64,000 nt of DNA from Candidatus Zambryskibacteria bacterium RIFOXYD1_FULL_40_13 (GTDB lineage Bacteria; Patescibacteriota; Minisyncoccia; Phycocordibacterales; DATDWN01): assembly GCA_001824295.1 (NCBI GenBank), contig MHWY01000008.1, forward strand, positions 52,261 through 116,260. The letters run 5' to 3'. Numbering within the stretch: position 1 is the stretch's first letter; each line of letters opens with the position of its first letter. Shown here piece after piece: positions 17,428 to 44,618 of the stretch. Position numbers and translations under genes: made by a program. The notes under the pieces are model-generated. The model saw only the letters and a program-made list of their open reading frames with translations. It was not told the origin of the DNA and did not search any database.

Positions 17428-17784
17428 ATGCCAGTAGTAAAAGTCTGGTGTCTTCCGGCGGATATTTCAGAAGACACTCTGCGAGCAATCCACAAGAGCA
17501 TCGTCGCGGCCACCATGTCCGTGGAAGAGTTTGGGGTCACAGACGAGAAGTCAATGACCACACTGTTCCCAAAGGACATGATGACCTATGGTCTCGGGAC
17601 TGAGATCATCATCGAGGTCCTCTCGAGAAGGTCCGCCAAGGTTCGGCCGGTAACGAGAGATCGATTGGCTGCGATCTTGGTGTCGGCTGTGTGTCCGTTC
17701 TTCCCTGATGCAATGGTGGAATGCCTCATTCTCCCATTTCGCGAGGAAGACGGCTTCTTTCACCTGGCAGGAACAAGGTCTTGA
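17428..17784 (+). CDS. GC-rich small protein, possibly tautomerase-superfamily-like (starts Met-Pro)
   Basis: 118 aa; ~52% GC versus ~38% in flanks; strong SD AAGGAG 8 nt upstream; own terminator at 17812-17846. The MPVVKVW N-terminus is reminiscent of Pro1 tautomerases; this is a weak assignment. Confidence 0.35.
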   Translation: MPVVKVWCLPADISEDTLRAIHKSIVAATMSVEEFGVTDEKSMTTLFPKDMMTYGLGTEIIIEVLSRRSAKVRPVTRDRLAAILVSAVCPFFPDAMVECLILPFREEDGFFHLAGTRS

Positions 17785-17958
17785 GATCTTGCCACGCAAC
17801 CCGCCCGTCACGGAGACCGCCCTGTCTCCCAGACGAGGCGGTTTTCCATATCAAATTTTACTATTTTTCACTTTCTGCTATACTGCAAACGAGTCTAAGG
17901 TCTACAAAGTCAAAGTCCCCAAAGTTGGTTTTAACTTTATAAACTTTCAACTAAAATT

Positions 17959-18528
17959 ATGTTAATACCAACAGTCATAGAAAAATCCCAATTCGGCGAG
18001 CGAGCATACGACATATACTCGAGACTTTTGCGTGAAAACATCATTTTCCTTGGTGGAGAAATAGATGACGACACAGCAAATATCGTCATCGCTCAGATGC
18101 TTTTCCTTCAATCAGAGGACTCAAAGAAAGACATTTCGCTTTACATAAACTCCCCTGGCGGATACATACACTCTGGATTAGCTATTCTAGACACAATGAA
18201 TCACATCAAAAATGATGTTTCAACCGTTTGTGTTGGCATCGCTGCCTCAATGGCTTCCGTCATACTATCGGCTGGTAAAAAAGGCAAAAGATTTATCTTA
18301 CCAAATGCAGAGGTCATGATTCACCAGCCTCACGGCGGAGCACAAGGGCAAGCAAGTGATATTGAAATATCTGCAAGACATATACTTAAGTCTAGAGAAA
18401 CCCTAAACAAAATGTTGGCCAAGAATACAGGCAAACCACTATCTCAAATAGAAAAGGATGTAGACCGAGATTTCTTTATGACCGCTGAGGAGGCTAAAAA
18501 ATACGGGATTGTTGACAAAATCTTGTAA
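17959..18528 (+). CDS. clpP: ATP-dependent Clp protease proteolytic subunit
   Basis: 189 aa; [15 protein letters not shown] (Ser), MIHQP (His) catalytic motifs. Confidence 0.95.
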
Positions 18529-18748
18529 AAATCGCCACTTTTGACTTTTTTGCGGTTTTCTTATACAATACAGACATTATTTATTTTAATTAAATAACTG
18601 ATTGTTTTCGTTTTTCTGATATATTTCTGTTCAAATTCGGATTACTTAACAAATTTTAGAGATAAAAACTTATTGCATGACTCATACTGATTACACATTG
18701 AATAAACTCTATATTTAGAAGAGCGAGAGCGGCTGTTATCCGCAAAAC

Positions 18749-20278
18749 ATGTCATTAAAAATAGTATTGCTGTTCGTCAGCATTGCATCACTTATATCAA
18801 TAGTGATTGGATACTATTTGCGTCTCATTGTTTCTTTGGGTCAGAAGGGTTCTATGGAGCTTGACCTAAAGAAAATGATGCTGGAAGCAAAGGATAAGGA
18901 GAAAGCAATCATTGATGAAGCAGAGAAAAAAGCTGAGGAGTTTTTGAAAAACGCAAGACAGGAGATAAAACAAAAAGAGGAAGATGCAAAGAAAACAGAA
19001 GAAAGACTTATCAAAAAAGATGAGCTTCTTTTGAATAGACAAACAGAGATTGATAAAGAGGTTGAGGAAATAAAAAAGAGAATTGAGGAAATAAAGTCTA
19101 TTAGAGAAAAAACCGAGCAAATTGAAGGCCAAAAGAAGGAGGAGCTCATAAAAATCGCCAAACTTACTCCAGAAGAAGCAAAACAAGAAATTCTAAAAAC
19201 CGTAGAGAAAGAAAGCGAGGAAGATATTTTGGTTAGAATGAAAAAGTTGGAAATAGACGGCGAGGAGAGATTAGAGGAAAAAGCAAAAGAAATTTTGACC
19301 ACATCTATTCAAAGATTGTCCAACTCTGTATCGTCAGACATGCTTACAACCCATGTGACTATTCCCAATGATGAGATTAAAGGAAAAATTATTGGAAAGG
19401 AAGGTAGAAACATAAAATCATTTGAAAGATGTACTGGGGTTGAAGTCATAGTAGACGATACTCCGGGCTCTATCACTATTTCTTCGTTTGATCCAGTTCG
19501 CAGACAAATCGCCAAGAGTGCTCTAGAGAAACTTATTGCTGATGGCCGTATCCAGCCAGCAAAAATTGAGGAGATGGTTCAGAAAGCCGAACAAGAAATT
19601 GCAAAAATAATAAAAGATAAGGGTGAAGAAGCTGTGTATGAAACGGGCGTTTTGGGTCTTGATTCAAGAATAGTTTCCATCCTTGGTAGACTACACTTCC
19701 GAACAAGTTATGGACAAAATGTCTTGGCTCACTCTGTTGAGATGGCCCACATTGCTGGAATGCTTGCGGAAGAAATCGGAGCAAATGTTCAAGTGGCGAA
19801 AGCAGGGGCTTTGGTACACGATATAGGCAAAGCCTTAGACCATGAGGTAGTGGGTACACACATTGAGATTGGAAGGAGAATTCTCCAGAAGTTTGGTGCG
19901 GATGAGGCCATAATCAAGGCAATGCAGGCACATCATGAGGAATACCCTTACGAAACATTAGAATCAATGATTGTTCAGTCAGCAGATGCCATATCTGGGG
20001 GTCGCCCAGGTGCCAGAAGAGACAGCGTAGAAAACTACTTGAAACGACTAAAGGAGTTGGAGGCCGTAGCAAGCTCATTTAAGGGGGTTGAGAAATCATA
20101 TGCCTTGCAGGCTGGGCGCGAAATAAGAATATTCGTCACACCAAGCGAGGTTACAGACCTAGAAGCAAAGAAAATGGCTAGAGATATAGCTGTAAAGATA
20201 GAAAGCGAGCTTAAATATCCAGGAGAAATCAAGGTAACCATTATCCGTGAGTCGAGAACTATCGAGTTTGCAAGGTAA
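18749..20278 (+). CDS. rny: Ribonuclease Y
   Basis: 509 aa; N-terminal TM, Lys/Glu-rich coiled coil, KH domain (IGKEGRNIKSFE), HD domain (HSVEMAHIAG...HDIGKA). Confidence 0.9.
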   Translation: MSLKIVLLFVSIASLISIVIGYYLRLIVSLGQKGSMELDLKKMMLEAKDKEKAIIDEAEKKAEEFLKNARQEIKQKEEDAKKTEERLIKKDELLLNRQTEIDKEVEEIKKRIEEIKSIREKTEQIEGQKKEELIKIAKLTPEEAKQEILKTVEKESEEDILVRMKKLEIDGEERLEEKAKEILTTSIQRLSNSVSSDMLTTHVTIPNDEIKGKIIGKEGRNIKSFERCTGVEVIVDDTPGSITISSFDPVRRQIAKSALEKLIADGRIQPAKIEEMVQKAEQEIAKIIKDKGEEAVYETGVLGLDSRIVSILGRLHFRTSYGQNVLAHSVEMAHIAGMLAEEIGANVQVAKAGALVHDIGKALDHEVVGTHIEIGRRILQKFGADEAIIKAMQAHHEEYPYETLESMIVQSADAISGGRPGARRDSVENYLKRLKELEAVASSFKGVEKSYALQAGREIRIFVTPSEVTDLEAKKMARDIAVKIESELKYPGEIKVTIIRESRTIEFAR

Positions 20279-20313
20279 AAACCCTCTCAAAACCTGTTTT
20301 CTAAGACACGCAT

Positions 20314-20335
20314 AAAGCCCTGTTGGGCTTTTGCT
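20314..20335 (+). terminator. Rho-independent terminator of rny
   Basis: aaagccctgttgggcttttgct. Confidence 0.7.
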
Positions 20336-20701
20336 ATGCTCGGAAATCAAGAAAATAATCTTCCTCAATGCTTTCCTTACAGGAACAGTACACCTTTCAC
20401 ACCTGATTATAGGTGTTCAAGGTTTTACGAAGTCGTAATACGACTTCTCACCCTTTCGCAAACTCGTCGCGGGTTACCGCTCCTCAAACAGTGCTTCGGG
20501 CTGGCGCATTTTGTCGTTATTTTCTAATTTCCTGTGCAATGTCTCAGAAAACAAGTTTTTCGTTCTAACGAGAATGAAATTTTTAGATTGTTTACACAAC
20601 TATTTTAATCCACAGTCAATATGTTGCTTTAAAAAAGCGTTGGTATATAATGTTCTTATAGTAGATAGTAAAAAATTATTAGGTAATTATTAAAATCAAA
20701 T

Positions 20702-20974
20702 ATGAATAAAGCATCAATCGTAGAGGCAGTGCACGAAAAACTTGGTGGCACAAAGGTCCAAGCAGAAGAGGTTGTTGATTTAGTTATTGATTCTATCGTT
20801 GGTACACTAAAGAAAGGTGGCGAAGTTTCAATCGCTGGTCTTGGAATCTTTTCAACAAAGACTCGAGCAGCAAGACAAGCTCGAAATCCACGAACAGGAG
20901 AGTCTATTTCTGTTCCATCAATGAAAGTTCCAAAGTTTCGTGCAGCAAAGGCTCTTAAAGAAGCTGTAAAATAG
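20702..20974 (+). CDS. hup: DNA-binding protein HU
   Basis: 90 aa; GLGIFSTKTRAARQARNPRTGESISVP beta-arm motif. Confidence 0.9.
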   Translation: MNKASIVEAVHEKLGGTKVQAEEVVDLVIDSIVGTLKKGGEVSIAGLGIFSTKTRAARQARNPRTGESISVPSMKVPKFRAAKALKEAVK

Positions 20975-21013
20975 TCGCTTGATTTAAATTTTTAAAAAAT
21001 TTTATTTGCGCAA

Positions 21014-21042
21014 TCAAAAAACCACCTCTTGGTGGTTTTTTG
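21014..21042 (+). terminator. Rho-independent terminator of hup
   Basis: caaaaaaccacctcttggtggttttttga. Confidence 0.75.
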
Positions 21043-21063
21043 ATTATGTGTAGTTATATATAC

Positions 21064-21387
21064 TTAAACCAACCTAAACGATATTATTTTCACTAATGTA
21101 TCTAACGTAACCTTCTCACCATAATATTCTTTGTAGTGTTTGAGCATATCTTCTTTATCTATAAATTTTTCATGCCCAGTATAATCTTGCTCTGTAACGT
21201 CACCCAATTTCTTTTCTGTTACATTAAGAATTATAGCCTTTGCAAATTCTACTAATGTTTCCTTCACAATCAAAACGAGCTCATCACCTACCTGCAAATT
21301 TTTGTCGTCAAAAAGTCTCCAGGTTACTGTTTTTTCTCCTTTTAAAACAAGCTCGGCTAAATTACTTCTAAACTTAAGTGTTTTCAT
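21064..21387 (-). CDS. ASCH-domain (PUA-like) protein
   Basis: 107 aa; small beta-barrel-type sequence with KTVTWRL and the length typical of ASCH; assigned by resemblance only. Confidence 0.4.
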   Translation of the reverse strand: MKTLKFRSNLAELVLKGEKTVTWRLFDDKNLQVGDELVLIVKETLVEFAKAIILNVTEKKLGDVTEQDYTGHEKFIDKEDMLKHYKEYYGEKVTLDTLVKIISFRLV

Positions 21388-21388
21388 G

Positions 21389-21459
21389 TGCGGGATACCG
21401 GAGTCGAACCGGTCACCACAGTTTGGAAAACTGTTATTTTACCGATAAACTAATCCCGC
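21389..21459 (-). tRNA. tRNA-Gly (anticodon UCC)
   Basis: Reverse complement GCGGGATTAGTTTATCGGTAAAATAACAGTTTTCCAAACTGTGGTGACCGGTTCGACTCCGGTATCCCGCA folds as a cloverleaf; anticodon stem ACAGT/ACTGT, loop TTTCCAA; T-loop TTCGACT; CCA not encoded. Confidence 0.85.
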
Positions 21460-21515
21460 AATGAGATTATACTAGCAGAAAAAACACATGTAGGCAAAAA
21501 TGTTATAATTCACCC

Positions 21516-22628: not shown

Positions 22629-22632
22629 TAGA

Positions 22633-22935
22633 TTATTTAAAACTATTGTTAGCGCTTGTCTGCACAATAGCTTGAAAATTATCTCCCTTTCCCGTCTTGT
22701 TCGGTTTTTTCTGACCACATTTTTCACATTGATGAATAATGATATATTGCTTGCCTTTTTTCTCTATCATAACTGGCTTCATCATTCCTCCACAATTCCC
22801 TGCCCTGTCTCCAGGAAACACATCAACATGTTTGGACCACAAACACTCTGGGCAATGGTTTGTATACCCGTCACCCTTAATAGAGCATCCGCATTTCTCA
22901 CAAACAAAATCCTCAGTTTTACGAATAAATGTCAT
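22633..22935 (-). CDS. RNHCP-domain zinc-ribbon protein
   Basis: 100 aa; TNHCPECLWSKH matches the eponymous RNHCP motif plus additional CxxC pairs. Confidence 0.45.
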   Translation of the reverse strand: MTFIRKTEDFVCEKCGCSIKGDGYTNHCPECLWSKHVDVFPGDRAGNCGGMMKPVMIEKKGKQYIIIHQCEKCGQKKPNKTGKGDNFQAIVQTSANNSFK

Positions 22936-22954
22936 GTAAATAGTTTAAAACTCT

Positions 22955-22987
22955 GTCGGGGTGCCGGGATTCGAACTCGAAGTCGCC
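22955..22987 (-). pseudogene. tRNA 3'-half fragment (T-arm + acceptor 3' strand), near-identical to the 3' half of tRNA-Pro
   Basis: Reverse complement GGCGACTTCGAGTTCGAATCCCGGCACCCCGAC versus the tRNA-Pro 3' half GGCGACTTCGAGTTCGAATCTCGACACCCCGA (3 mismatches); no matching 5' half is adjacent. Confidence 0.7.
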
Positions 22988-22998
22988 TAAATTTTTAT

Positions 22999-23035: not shown

Positions 23036-23053
23036 GTTGTTTTCAACACTTCG

Positions 23054-23126
23054 TCGGGGTGTCGAGATTCGAACTCGAAGTCGCCTGTTCCCAAAACAGG
23101 AATGTTAGCCGTTACACCACACCCCG
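23054..23126 (-). tRNA. tRNA-Pro (anticodon UGG)
   Basis: Reverse complement CGGGGTGTGGTGTAACGGCTAACATTCCTGTTTTGGGAACAGGCGACTTCGAGTTCGAATCTCGACACCCCGA; anticodon loop TTTGGGA (UGG, G37); perfect 7-bp acceptor stem. Confidence 0.85.
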
Positions 23127-23145
23127 ACGAATTTTTTAAAACACC

Positions 23146-23187
23146 CTCCCCAAAAAGGAATGCTAGCCGTTACACTACACTCCGATA
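23146..23187 (-). pseudogene. tRNA 5'-half fragment (acceptor 5' strand + D-arm + degenerate anticodon arm), Pro-like
   Basis: Reverse complement CGGAGTGTAGTGTAACGGCTAGCATTCCTTTTTGGGGAGGG versus the tRNA-Pro 5' half CGGGGTGTGGTGTAACGGCTAACATTCCTGTTTTGGG; no T-arm/3' end follows. Confidence 0.6.
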
Positions 23188-27644: not shown

Positions 27645-27761
27645 ACCAATAAAGTTTGAGAAAATAAAAAGCGCCACTGTCTAGTTGCGGTTTTTATTTT
27701 ATTCCAAACAATTGGATAAGTGCTGTTGTTTGGATAAATTGGACACGAAAAACCCCCACTT

Positions 27762-27795
27762 GCGTACAAGTGGGGGGCTACCCTTGACCTCCAGG
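27762..27795 (-). terminator. Rho-independent terminator of the GC-rich pseudo-receiver gene
   Basis: Minus strand: cccccacttgtacgcaagtgggggttttt. Confidence 0.7.
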
Positions 27796-27841
27796 GTGAG
27801 GAGCTCTCTTTACGGCAAGAGCACGAATCCATTTCTGTGTG

Positions 27842-28258
27842 TCAGTCAGCGAGCTGACACTGACAAAGAACCTCTTCCCAAGTATCGCCATAGGGTTTGG
27901 GGCTATCGAACCTTCGAGGTAGATCTAGGAAAAAATACCTGTTAGAAGGCCGTACTGCCTTCAGTGCCTCGACGAGATCAACAACCACATGGCTCGCTGG
28001 GTGGTTTGAGTCCATTGACACCACCACATTCCTTACCCTGCCAAAAGCAGCAGTGATAAGTGCAACACCATCGGGCCACTGACTGAAAGATGGCAAAACA
28101 TCAACCATCATCAAGTCAAATCTTTCCGACTTGAGGTCTCTTAACGCCGACTCGTACGTGCCATCGACCGTCACTTCATGTGCTGGCCACAGAGAGAGAT
28201 TTCTGAGTGTGTTCAGAACCTCACCAAACGGACTCGCAACAAAAATTAGGACCTTCAT
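27842..28258 (-). CDS. GC-rich stand-alone receiver-like (CheY-like, degenerate) domain protein
   Basis: Start at MKVLIFVASPFG (SD GGGAGA 6 nt upstream); FDLMMVDVLPSFSQWPDG, LITAAFG, K-P near the C-terminus resemble REC motifs but the N-terminal acidic pair is absent; ~50% GC. Confidence 0.4.
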   Translation of the reverse strand: MKVLIFVASPFGEVLNTLRNLSLWPAHEVTVDGTYESALRDLKSERFDLMMVDVLPSFSQWPDGVALITAAFGRVRNVVVSMDSNHPASHVVVDLVEALKAVRPSNRYFFLDLPRRFDSPKPYGDTWEEVLCQCQLAD

Positions 28259-28425
28259 GGTATTCTCCCTTTCAAGAAACTGTTTACGAGACATCCCCCT
28301 TCCAGAATGGAAAGGGGTGGTGTTCGTAATCTGACATAAGGATAGCATGTGTTGATTTATATGTCAAGTGTTTATTACAAAAATGTGTTGTTAATCAAGG
28401 GTTAAATCTTTTTTGTGGGGTAAGT

Positions 28426-29250
28426 TTGACACAAATATATCTTTGGAATATAATGGTTTGTATGAAAAACGACACAAAGATAGACCAAAAAGGCCTCCTA
28501 GAATCACTTGTAAGATCTGGCCTGTCAGAAAACGAAAGTAGAGTGTTTTTAGTCCTATTAGAGCTTGGTCGTGGAACAGTAACACAAATAACAAGAAAGG
28601 CCGGCCTAAACAGAACAACAGGGTACGATATTTTAGATAGTTTAGTTGTAAAAGGTCTTGCTAGTATTTCTGGCAAGGAACCAAAGGAAGAATACCTGGC
28701 CGAATCTCCAGATAAAGTCGTTTTGTTGATTGAAAAGGAAATAAACGAAAAGAACGAACAGCTTCAGAATGTAAAAAAATTATTGCCAGAGATGAGGTCT
28801 ATTCATAATGTTGCTGGAAGACCAAAGATAAGATTTTATGAGGGAATGGAAGGGCTGAAAGATGTTTACGAAGATACCCTAACTTCACACGAGGAGATTA
28901 GAGCATACGCAACCGTTGATGACATGCACATGGCTATGCCTTCTTATTTTTCTACATATTACAAAAGAAGAACAGAAAAAAATATTTCTATTAGGGCAAT
29001 CATTCCTGCAACACTCACAGGAAAAGCAAGGGCAAGCAGAGACGCGGAAGAAAAAAGACAGTCTAAACTTATTCCCCCTGATAAATACTATTTTTCACCT
29101 GAAATAAATATATATGATAATAAAGTAATGATTGCTTCGTGGCGAGAAAAACTTGGAATAATTATTGAAAGTGCAGAAATTGCTGATGCAATGAAAAAAA
29201 CTTATGAACTAGCATGGATAGGAGCGGAAGAGGAAAGTAAAAAATTATAA
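28426..29250 (+). CDS. TrmB-family transcriptional regulator
   Basis: N-terminal wHTH LSENESRVFLVLLELGRGTVTQITRKAGLNRTTGYDILDSLVVKGL; the true start may be the internal Met at ~28465. Confidence 0.55.
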   Translation: MTQIYLWNIMVCMKNDTKIDQKGLLESLVRSGLSENESRVFLVLLELGRGTVTQITRKAGLNRTTGYDILDSLVVKGLASISGKEPKEEYLAESPDKVVLLIEKEINEKNEQLQNVKKLLPEMRSIHNVAGRPKIRFYEGMEGLKDVYEDTLTSHEEIRAYATVDDMHMAMPSYFSTYYKRRTEKNISIRAIIPATLTGKARASRDAEEKRQSKLIPPDKYYFSPEINIYDNKVMIASWREKLGIIIESAEIADAMKKTYELAWIGAEEESKKL

Positions 29251-30072: not shown

Positions 30073-30207
30073 CTCAATATTTTACCACAAACAAGAACAA
30101 GAGCTTAAAATGCCTCAGGTGCTAGGCGCAGGAAGTTTTGTGAAAGAGCCGTACTGTCGTACGGTGAATGAACAAAACTGAACTGCAACAACGCAGATGA
30201 GGTATTT

Positions 30208-31149
30208 TTAGCTCTTGTTATGAAACTTCTTGTGGATGTCACGGAGGTGTTTGTCAGTCACATGTGTATATATCTGTGTGGTAACAATACTTGAGTGTCC
30301 GAGCATGGCTTGGACGGAACGCAAGTCCGCCCCATTGCCGAGTAAATCTGTGGCAAAAAGGTGTCGTATTGTATGGGGTGTAACCTTTTTTGATATTCCA
30401 GCTTTGATTGCATGCTGTTTTACAATCCTCTCAATTGATCTGTTGTTCAGAAATCCATATTCTCTCGTACTGTTACTTTTAAAACTTTTTTCATCAACGG
30501 GGGTAAATAGGGCGTCACTAATATCCTTGCGTGCCTTCAAATATGCCCTGACACATTTCTTTGCCTCGTCAGAAAGGAAAACCACGCGAACCTTGCCCCC
30601 CTTACCACGAACAGACAGCTCGTCAGAATTAAGGTTTATGTCTCGTGTTAGAGACCGGAGCTCGGAAACACGAAGACCAGTAGAAAACAGCAGTTCGAGA
30701 ATGGCTTTGTCTCGCAAATCTTTCAGATTGCTCCCGTTGGGGGAATTGAGCATACGAGAGAGTTCCTCTGGAGTGATAAGGTCAAGAGACCTCTCGGAAA
30801 CCTTTGCTAGTTCTATCCTCTCGGCAGGCATGGTTTTAATTTCCTGCCTAGCTAGATATTTTAAAAAGGCCCGAAGAGCGATGAGATAGTAGTTCTGAGT
30901 TTTTCTGGACAATGTTTCATCGTTTCTCTTGCTGTGACCGGTCGGTTGCCTGTTGAGCCAGAGACGATACTGACGAACTACCTCATCCTTTATGTCGGCT
31001 GGGTTGTCAGTCTTGATGAAGTTCAAAAAACGAGTCAAATAGTGGTCATAATTCTCAACAGTTTTCACCGAACGGCCTCGTTCTATTTCTATGTATTCAA
31101 GAAACTGTTGTTTGAGTTGTTTGAGTGAAGACATGAAAATAGTTATCAA
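30208..31149 (-). CDS. Tyrosine site-specific recombinase, XerC/XerD family
   Basis: 313 aa; HTIRHLFATDLLGNGADLRSVQAMLGHSSIVTTQIYTHV C-terminal catalytic region (R..H..R..Y). Confidence 0.85.
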   Translation of the reverse strand: MITIFMSSLKQLKQQFLEYIEIERGRSVKTVENYDHYLTRFLNFIKTDNPADIKDEVVRQYRLWLNRQPTGHSKRNDETLSRKTQNYYLIALRAFLKYLARQEIKTMPAERIELAKVSERSLDLITPEELSRMLNSPNGSNLKDLRDKAILELLFSTGLRVSELRSLTRDINLNSDELSVRGKGGKVRVVFLSDEAKKCVRAYLKARKDISDALFTPVDEKSFKSNSTREYGFLNNRSIERIVKQHAIKAGISKKVTPHTIRHLFATDLLGNGADLRSVQAMLGHSSIVTTQIYTHVTDKHLRDIHKKFHNKS

Positions 31150-31219: not shown

Positions 31220-31250
31220 ACAAGAAAAGACCGCCTCACGGGAGGCGGCC
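31220..31250 (-). terminator. Rho-independent terminator
   Basis: Minus strand: GGCCGCCTCCCGTGAGGCGGTCTTTTCTTGTC. Confidence 0.65.
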
Positions 31251-31481
31251 AAGGAAGAACAGGGTGGCCAGAACGCCGGCCACGAACGAGAGGATCTGGC
31301 GCCAGTACTGGCGCCAAGCTGAGCGAATGAAATGAGAGAGATGTCGGTACAGGAATCGGTCGATCGCTCTCCACACCCGCCCGACGGCCGGGGGGCCACC
31401 CACCAACAGCGCCAGGCCGGTGATGAGTAGCATGATGAGAACGGAAAGCGTGAAGAGCTCGTTGAGTAGCATCTGTAGCAC
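31236..31481 (-). CDS. GC-rich hypothetical small membrane protein (2 TM)
   Basis: 81 aa; ~60% GC; SD GAGGTG 7 nt upstream of the ATG; terminator directly downstream. Confidence 0.45.
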   Translation of the reverse strand: MLQMLLNELFTLSVLIMLLITGLALLVGGPPAVGRVWRAIDRFLYRHLSHFIRSAWRQYWRQILSFVAGVLATLFFLGRLP

Positions 31482-31644
31482 CTCGGTTCTTGGGTGGCCT
31501 GTGTGACCACCTCCTACCCCGTATTATATCATATAGAGGTGACAAAGTCAAGAATAAAACAGTTTCCTGGGATTTTTTGGCTATAACTAGGCCCAATAAA
31601 ATAACCTTGCAATGTAGTGGGTTTTGTGATATCCTATCGGAACA

Positions 31645-32807: not shown

Positions 32808-33081
32808 AATATTGTTGGTTGACTATAAGAACTGGATAGTATATTGTGGCTAAGCCAGCTGGGGCTGGCAAGCTACAACTCAAAAGGGGTGGCGCCGGTA
32901 ATCCCGATCCTCACGGGGGAAACTTGAAACCCGCGCCACCCCGAATGAGTTATCCAGTTCTTTGTGGCAAAAGCCACATTTCGTCGCAGTCTCTACGCAA
33001 ACCAGCACATTCAACAATGAGTGGCTGGTTGTTTTTGTAGAAAAATTTTTAATTCCAGTAAAATTTGTTACACTATAACAA

Positions 33082-39185: not shown

Positions 39186-39230
39186 ACTGTTGTTTTATTT
39201 TTATCTCAAACATATTACAATTAAGAAATC

Positions 39231-40808: not shown

Positions 40809-40840
40809 AAACTTGACTCGTATGTTATAATACAGCCAAT

Positions 40841-41593
40841 ATGATAGAAAAATATCTAGAAGATGCTGGGTTAAGCGACAAAGAAGTTAAAATATATCTG
40901 CAATTAATACAAATGGAGAAAGCTTCTGTGGTAGATTTGGCAAATAAAACAAAGATTAAAAGACCGACTGTTTATACAATACTTGATTCTCTGGCAAAAA
41001 AGGGGTTGGTAAGTCAGATAGATGAGGACAAAAAAACCAGATATTTTGCTGAATCTCCTGATAAATTAAATTTGTTTGTAGAAAGGAAGGAGCAATCCCT
41101 AAAAGAACTGAAAGAAAGATTTGTTAACGACATTATTCCTCAAATAAAAAGTTTACAGAGAGAATCTGGAGAAAAACCTATCGTGAAGTTTTTCTCAGGT
41201 AAAGAAGGAATTGTAAGTGCCCACGATAATGTTTTTTATGGAAAACCAGATGGGTCACCAACATATATAATATATTCCAAGGATTTAGTTGATGAATCAT
41301 TCAAAAACGAGGAGACAAATAAATACCGCAACACTAGAATAGAGCTTGGTATAAAAGCAAAAACCATATACAACTGGTCAAAGGGGGTCAAGGAATCTGA
41401 CGAGATGGCCGAAAGAATAAAAGTTGATGAAAAAAAATATCCCTTTTTTACTGATATTACTATTTATAAAGATAGGGTGAGAATTAACATTTTGGGCAAG
41501 AAATTATCTGGTATTTATATTGAGAGTAAGGATTTAGCTGAAACTCTAAAAAGCCTGTTCAACCTAGCTTTTGATAACCTAAAAAACAAATAG
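40841..41593 (+). CDS. TrmB-family transcriptional regulator (paralog of 28426)
   Basis: 250 aa; LSDKEVKIYLQLIQMEKASVVDLANKTKIKRPTVYTILDSLAKKGLV wHTH. Confidence 0.55.
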   Translation: MIEKYLEDAGLSDKEVKIYLQLIQMEKASVVDLANKTKIKRPTVYTILDSLAKKGLVSQIDEDKKTRYFAESPDKLNLFVERKEQSLKELKERFVNDIIPQIKSLQRESGEKPIVKFFSGKEGIVSAHDNVFYGKPDGSPTYIIYSKDLVDESFKNEETNKYRNTRIELGIKAKTIYNWSKGVKESDEMAERIKVDEKKYPFFTDITIYKDRVRINILGKKLSGIYIESKDLAETLKSLFNLAFDNLKNK

Positions 41594-41606
41594 CAACAGA
41601 TATGGT

Positions 41607-41950
41607 GAAGGCCTGACGGGGGAATTGAATCCCCCCGCCAGGCCTTTGTCGAAGCCGAAGCTCCGTGGTCTTAGCCCTTTCGGGCCGTGTTGTTGGTAGT
41701 CTTTCGAGCTACCGTCCGTCCCAACCCGCATAGCGTGGTTGTGACGAACAAACGATAACTACTAGTCGAACACGGCCCCGCCTCCTTTCTGGAAAGGGCC
41801 CCGAACGAGACACTACCCGGATCAAACCCCACCGGCTCTGCTTGGGATGCCCTATCGCACCCCAAGTTCGCCCGCCGGGTTAGTCCCACATCCTCGCCTC
41901 CCTTGAACTGGGTTGACGTACCAACATAGAGTATACACCCTATGTTTATT
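41607..41950. other. GC-rich structured non-coding segment; begins with a tRNA-like minihelix hairpin
   Basis: GGCCTGACGGGGGAATTGAATCCCCCCGCCAGGCC (acceptor-like stem enclosing a T-arm-like hairpin); further hairpins GCCCTTTCGGGC, GGTAGTCTTTCGAGCTACC; ~58% GC; no ORF. Confidence 0.35.
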
Positions 41951-42093
41951 TTGTCAAATACGAATTTCAAAACAGATTAATTCTGTGTCAATTTAGTTAT
42001 GTTTGTGTCAGTCTCATTTATAATCAATATTATAATAAACGGCCTTATTATGGGCTGTTTTCATTATTCGTATAGATGATTTGTCAGAACTCC

Positions 42094-42122
42094 TTGACAA
42101 AAAATAGGACTTAGTATATACT
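42094..42122 (+). promoter_or_regulatory. Near-consensus sigma70-type promoter (TTGACA-17-TATACT) driving the 42259 gene
   Basis: ttgaca aaaaataggacttagta tatact read directly; followed by a ~125-nt leader containing a long hairpin GGATAACTTTCGCTTCC...GGGAGCGAAAGTAACCC. Confidence 0.6.
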
Positions 42123-42258
42123 ACTTCCAGAATCAAATAAACAAAAAGTCAGTTGGCTTTGACATCGGATAACTTTCGCTTCCACTTTGGTTGGTCCGGA
42201 TCGCACATATTACTTGCGAGGGACCCCAAAGCGGGAGCGAAAGTAACCCACATTTGAG

Positions 42259-42582
42259 GTGAGTATGAAACGAGTGGTCTGTGCAGTCGTGCTAGTCCTC
42301 GCGGTCATGGCCACCGCTTGCAATGGGATGGTCCCCAAGCGAGAGGTGGTTCGGGACTACTGTGACACAGAGGTGGCGTACACCCTGTGGAAACAGGAGT
42401 CCGGGTACTGGCTCAATCTTCATGTTGGACCAGCCACCACGACCGTCTATTCCTCCAACCCTGGAAGGACACGGATGGTCAACTTGTCGCAGAAAGTTTC
42501 CTCTCCCGAGGAAGCCGACAAGTTGGTAAGAGAAACTCAGCAAGCCCTTGCCGAGAAACTCGCTAAGGCACGCCGAAAGTAG
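42259..42582 (+). CDS. GC-rich small secreted/lipoprotein-like protein
   Basis: 107 aa; signal peptide with Cys (VLAVMATAC); SD GAGGTGA; ~55% GC. Confidence 0.5.
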   Translation: MSMKRVVCAVVLVLAVMATACNGMVPKREVVRDYCDTEVAYTLWKQESGYWLNLHVGPATTTVYSSNPGRTRMVNLSQKVSSPEEADKLVRETQQALAEKLAKARRK

Positions 42583-42703
42583 TGCCGTGTAGACCAATCC
42601 CAAGTCTACAGAATTAGAAACTGGGACAACAATACTTCGGGGAAGTACCGAAGCGCCTACCAAGCGGTCACTGATCGTCCTCCAGAACGCCATCCTGGAT
42701 CCG

Positions 42704-42925
42704 AGGAAACCATAAATCCTCGGGTTTCCTTAAAAGCGAATCACCAGAATATAGACCGTGGTTTTCTTTTAAGGGAAGAGAGAAGGTGGTGACAGTGTGG
42801 CACTGAAGCGTCACAGTCGTAAGACTTCGGATGTTTTGTCCCAAGCAGACGAACCGCCGAATGTCACACCACCCCTTCTCCTTCCCAGCGTCATAGTCCA
42901 GGCCGGTGCAGCGGCCAGAGGACGC
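42704..42925 (+). ncRNA. Structured RNA-like element, copy A (strand uncertain)
   Basis: Hairpins GGAAACC...GGTTTCC, CCTTAAAAG...CTTTTAAGG, GGCCGgtgcagCGGCC; purine tract GGGAAGAGAGAAGG pairs with CCTTCTCCTTCCC; homologous to copy B with compensatory changes. Confidence 0.45.
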
Positions 42926-43358
42926 GAGAGTGAAATTCTCCACCTTTAAGTGAACTCTCCACTACTCCTTCAGGGAGTAGAAGGTGGACGGCGAGAGAAA
43001 CTCGTCATCGGGGATTAAAACACGGGTGGCCACCATGTTCTACAAAACAAGGAGGTCGGCCAAGCCCGCAAAAAACACCCCGAACTGCACTCGTTCTTTT
43101 CATAAACAATCTTTCGAAACCAAAGGTATGAGGTAGGTGTGGACAGACACCATAACCGAGTAGTGATGTGATTTGATAAGTACACCCTGAAAGGGTGTAA
43201 GTAACAGATGATCCACCAGCAGTGGGAATGGAGTGATGCTCTCCAGTCATCGTGTTGCCACATCCTATAAAATGGATGGGGCTCTCCTGAGCTTCCGTTC
43301 AGCGGAGACAAGATCCGCACTGTCCTTGCTTCGGAAGGTTGTGCCTAAACCTTGCCCT

Positions 43359-43540
43359 GAGGAACCTTGAGTTTCTCGGGGTTCCTTAAAAGCAAATCAC
43401 TAAACATAGACTGTGGTTTTCTTTTAAGGGAAGAGGGAGTACACGAGGGCTAAAATGATGCGCCTCATAAAGGCTGTCCCCTGATGTATGGAAACTTCTT
43501 CCCAAGTTACTCGTCCAGGCCTGTGCAGAGGCCAAAGGAC
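43359..43540 (+). ncRNA. Structured RNA-like element, copy B (strand uncertain)
   Basis: Same architecture as copy A: GGAACC...GGTTCC (covaries with A), CCTTAAAAG...CTTTTAAGG (identical stem), GGCCTgtgcagAGGCC (covaries with A); the variable middle domain differs. Confidence 0.45.
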
Positions 43541-43791
43541 TGTGGGGTGGTATGTATCCGTCCGAACCGAGAACCCCCCCGTACTCTGCAAGAGTAAAGG
43601 ACGGATGGTGAAGACTTACATTCATCATTGGGTAAAATGCCCCTCTAATGGGCAGTCATCCGTGGGGATTGTTGAGTGGAAACACCGCACCCTATTGACC
43701 CCAAACTGCACACCGCTCTTTTTGGAACGGCTCTACGGTTAAGGCTTCGCAAGCTACCATCGTGGGGCCTTTTTCGTATTAAAATTACACC

Positions 43792-44151
43792 CTACTCACC
43801 TTTTTGCCAATACATATTTAAATAGGCTGCTAGTCTGTGATATTTATCAGAAATAGACATCCCAGTTTCTTCATCAATTTTTTCATCACCAAGAGAAAAT
43901 CCATCTAGGGCCCCGAGCGAATTCTTGAACAACCTACCTCCAACCATAAAAGATTCTACCCCATCTTTAGATTTATATGAATCAATAAAATCCTGGGCTT
44001 CTTGTCTAGTTAACCCGCCTTCTTCACCCCATTTTATTGCTTCTTCAATAAATTTTTTTCTTCTGGCAGTTTTTTCTTTTTCTGTGTCACCCATCATAGA
44101 TTCTGCCTGTAAAATTTCTTCCTCTGTTGGTGTGTATTTATCTATACTCAT
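43792..44151 (-). CDS. Hypothetical protein (AT-rich, native-looking)
   Basis: 119 aa, acidic, no recognisable motifs. Confidence 0.35.
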   Translation of the reverse strand: MSIDKYTPTEEEILQAESMMGDTEKEKTARRKKFIEEAIKWGEEGGLTRQEAQDFIDSYKSKDGVESFMVGGRLFKNSLGALDGFSLGDEKIDEETGMSISDKYHRLAAYLNMYWQKGE

Positions 44152-44291
44152 AAATTTTATACTAGTTACTAATAGGTAATATTATACAATAAATGACCGG
44201 TGATGCCACACAACTTCTTGCGTAATAATAAAATTGACAAATTAAATGGTGAGAGTAGATTTAAAATCAGATAACCAACCTGGGAGGCAGT

Positions 44292-44618
44292 GTGGGCCTG
44301 AAGGCAAAGATGTCGTTGCGTATCGAGATTCCCTTTCTCACGGAGAACCCTCTCCGACACCTGATTGAGGTTGAGCTTGACCTCGATCTTGATCGAGGAA
44401 CCACAGTCCGGGGAAAGATTCCGGAGGAATTCACCATCGGCCCACAAAGGGTGTTTGTAGGCAAGGGAAAAGGACTCCTTGGTGCGATGGTAGACTGGCT
44501 CAAGCAGGTTGATTCTTCGGTGGAGTACCTTCCTGCCCACTGCAAGGTGGAGGACGAGAAGCGACGCCAAGCGGCCGAACAAAGACTCAAGGAAATGGGT
44601 CTATGGCCGATGCTCTAA
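44292..44618 (+). CDS. GC-rich hypothetical protein (GTG start)
   Basis: 108 aa; ~52% GC; SD GGGAGG 4 nt upstream of GTG; terminator at 44627-44663 (ccccgtgtggcccaaaaggccaccggggcttttt). Confidence 0.4.
   Translation: MGLKAKMSLRIEIPFLTENPLRHLIEVELDLDLDRGTTVRGKIPEEFTIGPQRVFVGKGKGLLGAMVDWLKQVDSSVEYLPAHCKVEDEKRRQAAEQRLKEMGLWPML

What the first reader, a model, noticed from the sequence alone, without database searches (positions are those of the whole stretch)
17428..44618. Five scattered GC-rich small ORFs, each with its own strong Shine-Dalgarno and hairpin terminator, in an AT-rich, largely SD-less genome
The ORFs are at 17428-17784, 27842-28258(-), 31236-31481(-), 42259-42582 and 44292-44618. 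They are 50-60% GC against ~38% background. Each is preceded by AAGGAG/GGGAGA/GAGGTG/GGGAGG at canonical spacing, and most are followed by a GC-stem terminator. Native housekeeping genes here (nusA, pnp, clpP, rny) have no recognisable SD. This compositional and translational-signal contrast suggests recent horizontal acquisition of compact autonomous gene cassettes. The source could be a GC-richer donor, conceivably a host bacterium if this organism is an episymbiont. Products are small: a Met-Pro tautomerase-like protein, a degenerate receiver domain, a 2-TM peptide, a lipoprotein-like protein and an unknown.
Basis: partly seen in the sequence, partly recalled or inferred. Interest (0 to 1): 0.65.

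Follow-up and report, generated by a model that had tools for sequence, protein, structure and literature searches.

The report
GC-rich SD-led accessory cassettes in Parcubacteria

Summary
All five ORFs lie at the stated coordinates, with GC 0.49-0.61 and GC3 0.50-0.78, against native GC3 of 0.34±0.045. Each has a canonical Shine-Dalgarno (SD) sequence, and four have their own terminator. Native genes have no SD, and about 40% look leaderless.

The organism is a Candidatus Zambryskibacteria (Paceibacteria). The interpretation of recent import from a GC-rich donor or host is only partly supported.
- Synteny shows that four cassettes sit in variable insertions within a conserved backbone.
- ORF1, ORF3 and ORF4 have homologues in the same lineage, some at the same locus, and ORF1 and ORF4 are under purifying selection (dN/dS 0.16-0.25).
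- ORF4 keeps GC3 of 0.66-0.70 although synonymous sites are saturated.
- ORF2 and ORF5 are orphans.

Across 79 related loci, GC-rich ORFs carry SDs far more often than native ones (24% versus 4%).

The cassette transcripts are unusually structured. Two further GC-rich units are non-coding RNAs. ORF4 lies in a locus next to a TrmB-family regulator gene, with a conserved leader hairpin, a 1.2-kb structured RNA and, in relatives, hammerhead ribozymes.

Best reading: a lineage-wide, SD-dependent, structured-RNA accessory gene pool. The state of the organism's 16S anti-SD is untested and would be decisive.

The parts
17361..17848 (+). ORF1 cassette. It has a TTGACA -35 at 17361-17366, a leader, SD AAGGAG at 17414-17419, the CDS at 17428-17784 (118 aa, tautomerase-superfamily fold) and a terminator at 17822-17848.
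   Evidence: Sequence; terminator. The family has 26 homologues. The AF2 model has pLDDT 90.6, and Foldseek matches fused 4-OT, cis-CaaD and MIF. The whole cassette is 81% identical in nucleotides to L087 at the same rsmE-clpP site. dN/dS is 0.16.
27748..28367 (-). ORF2 cassette. It has a promoter at 28367-28339, a leader of about 75 nt, SD GGGAGA at 28269-28264, the CDS at 28258-27842 (138 aa orphan, receiver-like topology), a conserved 3' element at 27837-27780 and a terminator at 27776-27748.
   Evidence: The only database hits are to itself. AF2 on the single sequence gives pLDDT 60 with (beta-alpha)5 topology, and Foldseek matches CheY and CpaE receivers at TM about 0.5. The 3' element is 86% identical to one in L053, which follows an unrelated GC-rich ORF next to a trmB gene. 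The transcript has MFE z = -5.2.
28426..29250 (+). TrmB-family regulator gene (trmB1). It is AT-rich, has no SD and is divergent from ORF2. It is part of the same insertion relative to L012, L013 and L016.
   Evidence: Pfam TrmB, E = 4e-14; synteny.
31224..31551 (-). ORF3 cassette. It has a promoter at 31551-31523 (TTGACT-17-TATAAT), a 5' SD-like GGAGGTGG inside a hairpin, SD GAGGTG at 31484-31479, the CDS at 31472-31236 (78 aa, two hydrophobic segments) and a terminator at 31250-31224.
   Evidence: Homologues of 28-35% identity occur in L016, L011 and L008, all GC-rich relative to their genomes, on the same side of pnp. L016 was confirmed at the same intergenic site. The cassette is absent at this site in L012, L013 and L009.
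32819..33040 (+). It has a promoter at 32819-32847, an RNA of about 185 nt and a terminator.
   Evidence: No gene is called here on the source contig. There is no Rfam hit.
40841..41593 (+). TrmB-family regulator gene (trmB2). It is AT-rich and lies immediately upstream of the GC-rich island.
   Evidence: Pfam TrmB, E = 1e-14. It is 80% identical in L007. trmB-like genes adjoin GC-rich segments in 11 of 19 cases.
41600..41957 (-). Autonomous GC-rich non-coding RNA of about 325 nt. It has a promoter at 41957-41930 (TTGACA-16-TATACT) and a bidirectional terminator hairpin at 41606-41645. Its only ORF is SD + ATG TGG GAC TAA.
   Evidence: MFE z = -8.2. The 5' part is 84% conserved in L007. The same design occurs in L168 and L170. 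There is no Rfam hit.
42094..43785 (+). ORF4 transcription unit. It comprises a promoter at 42094-42122, a conserved 27-bp leader hairpin at 42173-42243, SD GAGGTG, the CDS at 42265-42582 (105-aa lipoprotein), then 1.2 kb of structured RNA. That RNA holds two copies of a two-hairpin motif (42694-42800, 43350-43455). The terminator is near 43727-43780.
   Evidence: The leader has 5 covarying pairs across 4 genomes. The ORF4 family has 25 representatives, with an invariant lipobox Cys in the 22 sequences aligned. dN/dS is 0.25 against L007. MFE z-scores are -7.3, -7.1 and -3.9.
44234..44665 (+). ORF5 cassette. It has a promoter at 44234-44261 (TTGACA-16-TAGATT), SD GGGAGG at 44282-44287, the CDS at 44292-44618 (108-aa orphan) and a terminator at 44626-44662.
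   Evidence: The only hits are to itself, on 47 contigs. Codon-position GC is 0.66/0.35/0.61, which supports coding. The cassette is absent from L007.

Best explanation
**What the five ORFs are.** They are real small-protein genes carried on self-contained expression units. Each unit has a sigma-70 promoter with a -35 box, a 30-130-nt structured leader, a Shine-Dalgarno site, a GC-rich ORF and usually an intrinsic terminator.

**Where they belong.** Together with several GC-rich non-coding RNAs, they form a flexible, GC-rich, SD-dependent accessory pool. This pool occupies intergenic sites of an otherwise conserved, AT-rich, leaderless/SD-less backbone in Zambryskibacteria and other Paceibacteria (Parcubacteria).

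**Shown.**
- The units differ sharply from native genes in composition and expression signals.
- They are present or absent among syntenic relatives.
- Three of the five have homologues inside the same lineage, and the two tested (ORF1, ORF4) are under purifying selection.
- The GC-rich/SD-led class recurs across dozens of related genomes.
- The transcripts fold far more stably than composition predicts.

**Inferred.**
- The pool circulates within Patescibacteria. GC-richer, SD-using members of the group exist and could act as donors.
- Cargo ORFs are swapped between conserved flanking RNA modules, often beside TrmB-family regulators.
- High GC and the SD belong together functionally. A stably folded, leadered mRNA cannot use the host's leaderless or unstructured-leader initiation route, so it needs an SD to recruit the 30S subunit. 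This gives the genes a separate translational regime that can be regulated on its own.
- The products point to cell-surface or host-interaction accessory roles. They are a lipoprotein, a two-segment membrane peptide, a small tautomerase-fold enzyme, a receiver-like protein and one unknown.
For: **Composition and SD contrast.**

**Leaderless native starts.** 19 of 49 native genes against 3 of 49 in the control.

**Synteny.** ORF2+trmB1, ORF3 and the trmB2 island are insertions relative to L012 and L013; L016 lacks all but the ORF3 cassette.

**Same-lineage homologues.**
- ORF1 in L087 sits at the same locus and is 81% identical. Its dN/dS is 0.16, and its dS is 0.68 against 2.8-3.9 in the neighbouring genes.
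- ORF3 has homologues in L016, L011 and L008.
- ORF4 occurs in L007 and L168 at the same comM-trmB-...-M23 peptidase locus, and in L170.
- ORF4 has dN/dS 0.25 and keeps GC3 at 0.66/0.70 at dS 1.8.

**Generality.**
- In 79 loci (1334 ORFs), a strong SD sits at 4.3% of native starts, below the 5.8% internal background.
- It sits at 23.7% of GC3-rich ORF starts, against a background of 8.4% (binomial P = 4e-7).
- About 35 of 46 ORF1-family genes keep a strong SD (duplex energy -7.4 kcal/mol or lower), and many of them lie in loci whose native genes lack an SD. This holds even where their GC3 has fallen to host level.

**RNA structure.** MFE z-scores are -2.1 to -7.3 for the cassettes and -8.2 for the 41.6-kb RNA. 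Native genes score -1.2 to +1.8.

**Conserved flanks with variable cargo.**
- The leader hairpin follows trmB in four genomes with different downstream ORFs.
- The ORF2 3' element recurs in L053 after an unrelated ORF beside trmB.
- In L007 a terminator is duplicated around an extra cassette.

**Possible donors.** Some GC-richer relatives (48-51% GC) use an SD at 40-64% of genes.
Against: - No transfer event or vector has been identified. There are no convincing target-site duplications or terminal repeats, only 12-13-nt imperfect direct repeats around ORF2 and ORF5 that may be chance.
- ORF2 and ORF5 have no homologues and no sequence variants. Their coding status rests on the SD, codon-position periodicity and, for ORF2, a low-confidence fold.
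- Whether this organism's 16S rRNA carries an anti-SD is unknown. The literature suggests that many uL1-lacking Parcubacteria, which include Paceibacteria, lack the CCUCCU motif (PMC9297842, PMC12641178). If it is absent here, the SD-dependence step fails.
- The maintained-GC argument rests on a single orthologue pair (ORF4) with 47% amino-acid identity. It could instead reflect repeated allele replacement.
- The trmB association is modest (11 of 19 cases against about 30% expected, P = 0.01).
- Excess RNA structure is uneven among GC-rich homologues (z from -0.6 to -6.2).
Confidence: 0.5

Rival explanations
1. Recent horizontal acquisition from a GC-richer foreign donor, such as the host bacterium. 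On this view the cassettes still carry the donor's codon usage and SD because they have not had time to ameliorate.
For: - GC3 lies 3.6-9.9 SD above native values.
- The cassettes are insertions relative to syntenic relatives.
- ORF2 and ORF5 are confined to one species.
- ORF1's dS against L087 is much lower than that of its neighbours. This could mean a recent shared import or allele exchange.
- In the ORF1 family tree, GC3 is patchy, which is consistent with repeated transfers.
Against: - ORF1, ORF3 and ORF4 have homologues in the same lineage at the same loci.
- ORF4 and ORF3 homologues stay GC-rich despite 28-47% amino-acid identity and saturated dS.
- The same GC-rich/SD class is present in many Paceibacteria.
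- The adjacent trmB genes are compositionally native.
- No donor lineage was found for any cassette.
Confidence: 0.12
2. Moron-like remnants of phages or other mobile elements of CPR bacteria. On this view they are autonomous promoter-gene-terminator units dropped into the chromosome by an element with about 50-55% GC.
For: - The anatomy is exactly that of a moron: own promoter and terminator, and foreign composition.
- Most products are 'dark matter' with no Pfam family.
- Type III hammerhead ribozymes lie in the orthologous islands of L007, L168, L167 and L169. From general knowledge, bacterial hammerheads are often associated with phages.
- Partial tRNA-Pro duplications occur at 22.9-23.2 kb.
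Against: - There are no hits in IMG/VR, INPHARED, PLSDB, PHROGs or PADLOC.
- The neighbours are housekeeping genes (rsmE, clpP, rpsO, xerC-like, comM, M23 peptidase).
- The only integrase-family gene (30208-31149) is conserved in L009, L012 and L013, which lack the ORF3 cassette.
- No target-site duplications or terminal inverted repeats were found.
Confidence: 0.13
3. Native, lineage-specific regulon. On this view the genes are old residents whose high GC, strong RNA structure and SD are kept by selection. They would be controlled by the adjacent TrmB-family regulators and structured leaders for conditional expression, for example on host contact or stress. Lateral transfer would not be needed to explain their composition.
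For: - GC3 is maintained at saturated dS.
- Folding z-scores are strong and the leaders show covariation.
- The SD is kept in ORF1 homologues whose GC3 has fallen to host level, inside SD-less genomes.
- trmB genes are adjacent.
- dS for ORF1 is lower than for its neighbours, which is consistent with constraint on synonymous sites.
Against: - The units are present or absent among close relatives, and unrelated cargo ORFs sit at equivalent sites.
- ORF1 homologues in very AT-rich genomes have lost the high GC (GC3 0.18-0.32) and still persist, so GC-richness is not required for function.
- GC3 is distributed patchily on the family tree.
Confidence: 0.2
4. Some of the 'ORFs', notably ORF5 and ORF2, are not genes. 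On this view they are chance reading frames inside GC-rich structured non-coding RNAs like those at 41.6, 42.6-43.8 and 32.8 kb.
For: - ORFs of this length arise by chance in such GC-rich DNA (P = 0.16 for ORF5, 0.02 for ORF2).
- Overlapping antisense ORFs of 107-137 aa exist in the same places.
- Neither ORF has homologues or sequence variants.
- The neighbouring GC-rich units are demonstrably non-coding.
Against: - An SD sits at canonical spacing before both ORFs.
- Codon-position GC periodicity is strong: 0.66/0.35/0.61 and 0.58/0.39/0.50.
- ORF2 folds into a regular (beta-alpha)5 topology that resembles receiver domains.
- The ORF5 CDS has no excess RNA structure (z = -1.0).
Confidence: 0.05

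Closest known systems
Phage 'morons' (Hendrix-type autonomous promoter-gene-terminator insertions)
   Same: Each unit is a single small gene with its own promoter and intrinsic terminator. It is wedged between unrelated genes, and its nucleotide composition differs clearly from its surroundings.
   Different: The units sit between chromosomal housekeeping genes, not phage genes. They have no phage-family hits. Several units are non-coding RNAs. The flanking leader and terminator modules are conserved while the cargo varies. The contrast also extends to the mode of translation initiation, SD-led against leaderless/SD-less.
Genomic islets from horizontal gene transfer with atypical GC
   Same: GC and codon usage are atypical, the units are present or absent among close relatives, and many products are orphans.
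   Different: The closest homologues are within the same lineage and at the same loci. High GC persists over saturating divergence. No mobility genes or insertion scars were found. The adjacent regulators have native composition.
SD-poor lineages with a few SD-led genes (for example Bacteroidota, where the anti-SD is sequestered and rpsU keeps a strong SD). This comparison comes from general knowledge and was not tested here.
   Same: The genome is largely SD-less, and a small, special set of genes retains strong canonical SDs. This implies a separate translational regime.
   Different: Here the SD-led genes are accessory, GC-rich and variable, not a ribosomal autoregulatory gene. The native regime appears largely leaderless. 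Whether the anti-SD is present at all in this organism is unknown.
Type I toxin-antitoxin modules (considered for ORF3 only)
   Same: ORF3 encodes a small hydrophobic peptide on a stable, structured mRNA. The 5' hairpin involves SD-like and anti-SD-like sequences.
   Different: At 78 aa with two hydrophobic segments, ORF3 is longer than typical type I toxins. No antisense RNA or promoter was identified. The other four products are not membrane peptides.
Ro60/Y-RNA loci and ribozyme-processed multi-RNA transcripts
   Same: The ORF4 locus is dense in RNA. In L170 it holds a TROVE/Ro60 gene flanked by structured RNAs. In L007 and L168 it holds type III hammerhead ribozymes that would cut a long transcript into units.
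   Different: The window itself has no Ro60 gene and no hammerhead. There are no Rfam Y-RNA hits. The link is by locus homology only.

Membership tests
Recently acquired foreign (host-derived) HGT islet | Composition is atypical for the recipient genome. | tested here: met
   GC3 z-scores are 3.6-9.9 against 49 native ORFs.
Recently acquired foreign (host-derived) HGT islet | The islet is absent from the orthologous site in close relatives. | tested here: met
   The ORF2+trmB1 block and the trmB2 island are absent in L012, L013 and L016. The ORF3 unit is absent in L012, L013 and L009, but L016 carries an ORF3 homologue at that site. ORF5 is absent in L007. ORF1 could be compared only with L087, where it is present.
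Recently acquired foreign (host-derived) HGT islet | The closest homologues lie in a different, donor lineage. | tested here: not met
   The closest homologues of ORF1, ORF3 and ORF4 that could be placed lie in Zambryskibacteria/Paceibacteria relatives. Most other ORF1-family loci are unplaced metagenome contigs. ORF2 and ORF5 have none.
Recently acquired foreign (host-derived) HGT islet | The foreign composition decays with residence time (amelioration). | tested here: not met
   ORF4 has GC3 of 0.66 and 0.70 in the window and L007 at dS 1.8. ORF3 homologues are still GC-rich at 28-35% identity. Some ORF1 homologues in AT-rich hosts have ameliorated.
Phage moron | The unit has its own promoter and terminator around a single gene. 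| tested here: met
   Consensus-like promoters and terminators are present for ORF2, ORF3 and ORF5. ORF1 has a partial promoter. ORF4 shares a longer unit.
Phage moron | The unit is located inside a prophage, between phage genes. | tested here: not met
   The neighbours are rsmE, clpP, rpsO, CCA-adding enzyme, comM and an M23 peptidase. There are no PHROG, IMG/VR or INPHARED hits.
Integron gene cassette | Promoterless cassettes lie in an array next to intI, each ending in an attC site. | tested here: not met
   The units are scattered singly over 27 kb and each has its own promoter. No shared attC-like repeat was found. The only tyrosine recombinase gene is conserved in L009, L012 and L013, which lack the ORF3 cassette.
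Tautomerase superfamily (ORF1) | Beta-alpha-beta fold, here fused into two repeats. | tested here: met
   The AF2 model has pLDDT 90.6. Foldseek matches fused 4-OT, cis-CaaD, Cg10062 and MIF at probability 1.0 and TM 0.55-0.71.
Tautomerase superfamily (ORF1) | An N-terminal proline directly follows the initiator Met. | tested here: met
   20 of the 25 family members with an intact N-terminus start Met-Pro. The following KVWCLP block is nearly invariant.
Tautomerase superfamily (ORF1) | Sequence-level membership (Pfam Tautomerase models) and catalytic activity. | tested here: not met
   There is no Pfam hit at E <= 1. Catalytic activity cannot be tested here.
Response-regulator receiver domain (ORF2) | (beta-alpha)5 fold with the conserved acidic pocket (DD...D...T/S...K). 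| tested here: inconclusive
   The single-sequence AF2 model has pLDDT 60 with the right topology. Foldseek matches CheY, PmrA and CpaE receivers at TM about 0.5. There is no Pfam Response_reg hit. The N-terminal acidic pair reads Ala-Ser in the sequence.
Bacterial lipoprotein (ORF4) | An N-terminal hydrophobic segment ends in a lipobox with an invariant Cys. | tested here: met
   Cys19 is invariant in 22 family members. It is preceded by [LVF][AGST][AGS].
Type I toxin-antitoxin (ORF3) | A small hydrophobic toxin peptide plus an overlapping or adjacent antisense RNA antitoxin. | tested here: inconclusive
   The peptide is hydrophobic but 78 aa long. The scan found only one weak 9-of-12 opposing-strand match (31503-31532), overlapping the cassette's own promoter, and no antisense RNA was identified. 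There are no expression data.
Known structured RNA families (Rfam 15) | A covariance-model hit at or above the gathering threshold. | tested here: not met
   Only four tRNAs were found in the window. Nothing scored at E <= 1 in 41400-44900 apart from a spurious miRNA hit.

The most novel reading that the evidence does not exclude
Paceibacteria may run two separate gene-expression regimes in one cell.

- **Core regime.** The AT-rich genome is translated leaderless or without an SD. Its ribosomes are reported to often lack the canonical anti-SD.
- **Accessory regime.** A GC-rich pool of highly structured RNAs and small-protein mRNAs depends on a conserved SD. It is exchanged as cargo between conserved RNA 'expression platforms': a TrmB-linked promoter, a leader hairpin, two-hairpin leader motifs, hammerhead processing sites and shared terminators.

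If this is right, the SD/anti-SD interaction has been repurposed as a private channel for a mobile, host-interaction gene set. The GC-rich islands would then be a previously undescribed type of RNA-centred accessory locus in CPR bacteria.
Probability: 0.2. Interest if true: 0.85.

Novelty: new variant of a known kind. Interest (0 to 1): 0.62.

Why it matters
CPR bacteria make up a large share of bacterial diversity, yet their gene regulation is almost unstudied. This analysis adds three things.

- **A marker for the accessory genome.** An SD-less, largely leaderless core coexisting with a recurrent class of GC-rich, SD-led, strongly folded cassettes gives a simple sequence signature for the flexible genome of these episymbionts. 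That genome includes secreted and membrane proteins likely to touch the host.
- **A testable question about translation.** Do ribosomes reported to lack an anti-SD still read SD-led mRNAs, and is that a regulatory switch?
- **Candidate new RNA elements.** These are a TrmB-linked leader hairpin, a two-hairpin leader motif, a roughly 325-nt RNA carrying a conserved mini-ORF, and loci processed by hammerhead ribozymes. None matched any Rfam 15 family at its gathering score.

The finding also corrects a tempting but unsupported story of genes captured from the host.

Tried and rejected
**Family and collection searches with no informative hits**
- Pfam, PHROGs and PADLOC on the five ORFs and on other GC-rich ORFs from relatives gave no informative hits.
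- Single-protein scans of IMG/VR with ORF1, ORF2 and ORF4, and two conserved RNA motifs, found nothing.
- tblastn of ORF1 against phage and plasmid collections found nothing.
- PDB sequence searches for ORF2 and ORF5 found nothing meaningful.
- Rfam at gathering and relaxed thresholds found nothing in the window islands.

**Searches for mobility or insertion signatures**
- Flanking direct and inverted repeats were checked. Only short (10-13 nt) imperfect repeats appeared, overlapping promoter -35 boxes. They were judged indistinguishable from chance.
- The integron model was rejected: no array, no attC, and each unit has its own promoter.

**Missing or uninformative data**
- A 16S rRNA 3' end was sought in all 170 fetched loci to read the anti-SD. 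None was present.
- Cluster members of ORF2 and ORF5 were checked for variants to test selection. All were identical apart from start-codon calls.
- ORF length was tested as evidence of coding and is not significant in this GC-rich DNA.

**Ideas considered and set aside**
- The 41.6-kb RNA might be RNase P, SRP, 6S or tmRNA. It lacks their conserved motifs and has no Rfam or ARAGORN hit.
- The islands might be assembly chimeras. This was rejected because the same proteins occur on 29-47 independent contigs, including NCBI and JGI assemblies.
- An alignment with the window strand reversed was discarded and redone.

Full report
**1. What organism and what was checked**

The window (39.8% GC) comes from a Candidatus Zambryskibacteria genome in class Paceibacteria, the 'Parcubacteria' of the candidate phyla radiation.
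- ORF1 is 99% identical to a hypothetical protein of 'Parcubacteria group bacterium GW2011_GWB1_40_5'.
- ORF5 is annotated in Zambryskibacteria MAGs.
- The window's PNPase matches a 210-kb JGI contig exactly.
- The closest species representatives by PNPase are Paceibacterota and Zambryskibacteria MAGs, at 74-87% identity.

**2.

*Composition.* All five ORFs are present at the stated coordinates. Their GC is 0.49-0.61 and their GC3 0.50-0.78. The 49 native ORFs of at least 100 aa have GC3 0.340±0.045 with a maximum of 0.455. The five are therefore 3.6-9.9 standard deviations out.

*Shine-Dalgarno (SD) sites.* Each ORF has an SD at canonical spacing.

*Terminators and promoters.* Intrinsic terminators follow ORF1, ORF2, ORF3 and ORF5. 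ORF4 has none of its own. ORF2 to ORF5 also have near-consensus sigma-70 promoters with a -35 box. ORF1 has TTGACA with a weak -10.

*Native genes.* They lack an SD.
- Duplex energies with the anti-SD at their first start codons are mostly above -3 kcal/mol.
- In a wider survey the SD rate at native starts (4.3%) is below the rate at internal start-like codons (5.8%).
- 19 of 49 native genes have a -10 box, often TG-extended, that ends 4-12 nt before the start codon, against 3 of 49 in a shifted control. This indicates widespread leaderless mRNAs.

*Caveat.* ORFs of this length are not improbable in such GC-rich DNA (shuffle P 0.02-0.47). Coding status therefore needs other evidence.

**3. Are they genes?**

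| ORF | Evidence | Verdict |
|---|---|---|
| ORF1 | Conserved family: 26 word-index hits and about 137 metagenomic loci. dN/dS 0.16 against the syntenic orthologue in L087. Confident AlphaFold model (pLDDT 90.6) matching fused 4-oxalocrotonate tautomerase, cis-CaaD and MIF. Met-Pro start in 20 of the 25 members with an intact N-terminus. | Gene.
| ORF4 | Family of 25 representative clusters. Invariant lipobox cysteine and two further conserved cysteines in the 22 sequences aligned. dN/dS 0.25 against L007. | Gene; a small lipoprotein. |
| ORF3 | Homologues of 28-35% identity on the same side of pnp in L016, L011 and L008. | Gene. |
| ORF2 | No relatives among 5.8 billion clusters and no sequence variants. 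SD present and codon-position GC periodicity. Low-confidence (beta-alpha)5 model resembling receiver domains. | Probably coding, but unproven. |
| ORF5 | No relatives and no sequence variants. SD present and strong codon-position GC periodicity. | Probably coding, but unproven. |

**4. Are they insertions, and from where?**

*Insertions.* PNPase-anchored loci from relatives are collinear with the window.
- Between the CCA-adding enzyme and exonuclease genes, L012, L013 and L016 have about 370-400 bp. The window has 2.3 kb there, holding a small AT-rich gene, ORF2 and trmB1.
- Between the xerC-like gene and rpsO, L012, L013 and L009 have about 70-130 bp. The window and L016 carry an ORF3-type cassette.
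- Between comM and the M23 peptidase gene, L012, L013 and L016 have 25-190 bp. The window has 4 kb: trmB2, the GC-rich island with ORF4, one AT-rich gene and ORF5. L007 has 3.5 kb.

The units are therefore accessory insertions.

*Origin.* The homologues found, where they can be placed, lie within the lineage.
- ORF1 sits at the same rsmE-clpP site in L087. The whole cassette, including promoter and terminator, is 81% identical in nucleotides.
- ORF4 sits at the same locus in L007 and L168.
- Viral, phage, plasmid, PHROG and PADLOC searches were all negative.
- No convincing insertion scars were found.

*High GC is not a fading signature.*
- ORF4 has GC3 of 0.66 in the window and 0.70 in L007, although dS is 1.8, as saturated as in the neighbouring genes.
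- ORF3 homologues are GC-rich in all four genomes at 28-35% identity.
- ORF1 has dS of 0.68, while its neighbours clpP and rny have 2.8-3.9. This fits either constraint on synonymous sites or a more recent exchange of the allele.

This contradicts 'recent import from a host'.

**5. The pattern is general**

- In 79 loci from related genomes with at most 45% GC (1334 ORFs), a strong SD is present at 4% of compositionally native starts. It is present at 24% of starts of ORFs whose GC3 exceeds the locus median by more than 0.12, against a background of 8.4% (P = 4e-7).
- Many of these GC-rich, SD-led genes have no Pfam family.
- In the ORF1 family about 35 of 46 genes with enough flanking sequence have a strong SD (duplex energy -7.4 kcal/mol or lower), whatever the host GC (27-57%).
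- Gene GC regresses only half-way to host GC (slope 0.51). Members in very AT-rich hosts have host-like GC3 yet keep the SD.
- GC3 is patchy on the family tree.
- Some GC-richer relatives (48-51% GC) do use an SD at 40-64% of genes. They are plausible in-phylum donors.

**6. RNA structure and the wider anatomy**

*Folding.* The cassette transcripts fold much more stably than dinucleotide shuffles.

| Transcript | MFE z-score |
|---|---|
| ORF1 | -4.2 |
| ORF2 | -5.2 |
| ORF3 | -2.9 |
| ORF4 leader + CDS | -7.3 |
| ORF5 | -2.1 |
| Native gene segments | -1.2 to +1.8 |

GC-rich homologues elsewhere average about -2.4.

*The 41.6-43.8 kb region is mostly non-coding.*
- A roughly 325-nt RNA lies on the minus strand (41600-41925). 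It has its own consensus promoter and terminator and z = -8.2. Its only ORF is a conserved SD plus three codons.
- After ORF4 comes 1.2 kb of structured RNA (z -7.1 and -3.9). It has two copies of a two-hairpin motif and blocks 92-100% identical in L007 and L170.
- Upstream of ORF4 is a 27-bp leader hairpin. It is conserved, with five compensatory pairs, in the window, L007, L011 and L018, always downstream of a trmB-like gene but followed by different cargo ORFs.
- Another GC-rich promoter-to-terminator RNA lies at 32853-33037.

*TrmB association.* TrmB-family regulator genes of native composition adjoin GC-rich segments in 11 of 19 cases (P about 0.01). In L053 a trmB gene faces an unrelated GC-rich ORF. 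That ORF is followed by the same 60-nt 3' element as ORF2.

*Features of orthologous islands.* They contain type III hammerhead ribozymes with intact cores in L007, L168 (three copies), L167 and L169, at E about 1e-6, below Rfam's gathering score. L170 holds a Ro60/TROVE gene. The window itself has no hammerhead.

**7. Interpretation**

*Best-supported account.* The best account (confidence about 0.5) is a lineage-wide accessory pool of GC-rich, strongly folded, autonomously transcribed units. Some units encode small proteins and some are non-coding. They occupy intergenic sites of a conserved backbone and appear to exchange cargo between conserved RNA modules.

*Coupling of high GC and the SD (inference).* A folded, leadered mRNA cannot use the host's leaderless or unstructured-leader route, so it needs an SD. 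The conservation of the SD in long-resident ORF1 homologues argues that it is functional.

*The weak point.* Published surveys report that the CCUCCU anti-SD motif is undetected in about half of Parcubacteria, largely the uL1-lacking group (PMC9297842). Paceibacteria lack uL1 (PMC12641178). No 16S gene was available here.

*Rivals.*

| Rival explanation | Confidence |
|---|---|
| Recent foreign or host HGT | 0.12 |
| Phage or mobile-element morons | 0.13 |
| Purely native regulon with selected GC and structure | 0.20 |
| Spurious ORFs in non-coding RNAs (ORF2 and ORF5 only) | 0.05 |

**8. Verdict**

- The HGT-from-host interpretation is not supported. The 'autonomous accessory cassette' part is supported.
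- The phenomenon is a new variant of known kinds: morons and genomic islets, and SD-poor genomes with a special SD-led gene set. The RNA elements are undescribed in Rfam.
- Interest is 0.62. It is surprising and testable, but the mechanism and origin remain inferential.

Noticed in passing
window 41600-41957 (-): An autonomous GC-rich RNA of about 325 nt. It has a TTGACA-16-TATACT promoter and a bidirectional terminator, and its MFE z-score is -8.2. Its only ORF is a strong SD followed by ATG TGG GAC TAA, which is conserved in L007. The equivalent RNA in L170 also has an SD plus a four-codon ORF, and L168 has an RNA of similar layout. There is no Rfam hit.
   Followed up: partly
window 42583-43785 (+): A 1.2-kb structured RNA that appears to be co-transcribed after ORF4. 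It contains two copies of a two-hairpin motif (42694-42800, 43350-43455). The motif also occurs in L007 and twice in L168, where it directly precedes SD-led small ORFs. A 54-nt block (42619-42672) is 92-94% identical in L007 and L170. A 65-nt block around 43025-43090 contains AAGGAGG and is nearly identical in L007.
   Followed up: partly
L007 16903-16966; L168 3519-3572, 2742-2791, 2337-2387; L167 856-910; L169 1-32; L051 about 1015: Type III hammerhead ribozymes with intact catalytic cores lie in the orthologous trmB-linked GC-rich islands, flanking ORF4 homologues. The best score 40-43 bits (E about 1e-6), below Rfam's gathering score. None is present in the window.
   Followed up: partly
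L170 1994-3676: A GC-rich TROVE/Ro60 gene lies between a trmB gene and an ORF4 homologue. Tandem structured RNA modules precede it. This hints that the locus type is linked to RNA quality control. PNPase is encoded 5 kb upstream of the island in the window.
   Followed up: no
window 32819-33040 (+): A further GC-rich unit with promoter, an RNA of about 185 nt and a terminator, but no plausible ORF and no Rfam hit. Relatives carry unrelated inserts of different length at the same intergenic site. L012 has a 490-bp GC-rich one.
   Followed up: partly
window 15211-15343 and 30115-30210; L010 16834-16943: A palindromic element of about 100-130 nt with terminal inverted repeats. It occurs twice in the window, in opposite orientations and at 88% identity, and once in a relative. 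It could be a MITE-like element or a structured small RNA.
   Followed up: no
window 22944-22988, 23053-23126, 23147-23185: tRNA-Pro(UGG) is flanked on both sides by 87%-identical partial copies of its own 3' and 5' halves. This may be a scar of integration or excision, or a decayed duplicate.
   Followed up: no
window 44717-44818 (-): A 100-nt element immediately 3' of the M23/LysM peptidase gene is 87-90% identical in L013 and L014, whereas the protein is only 71-74% identical. It is predicted to form a long hairpin with one compensatory change.
   Followed up: partly
window-wide, for example 21516, 40841, 50651, 57950: Many native genes have a TGnTAnAAT extended -10 box that ends 5-9 nt before the ATG. 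This implies leaderless transcription and translation as the default mode. The rsmE start is probably at 17340, not at the GTG at 17427 that abuts ORF1.
   Followed up: partly
L007 17636-18076: An extra GC-rich cassette (promoter, AGGAGGTGG, a 66-aa basic ORF) is bracketed by a direct duplication of the 57-nt terminator module that ends the ORF4 unit. This suggests that cassettes are gained through recombination at shared terminator sequences.
   Followed up: no
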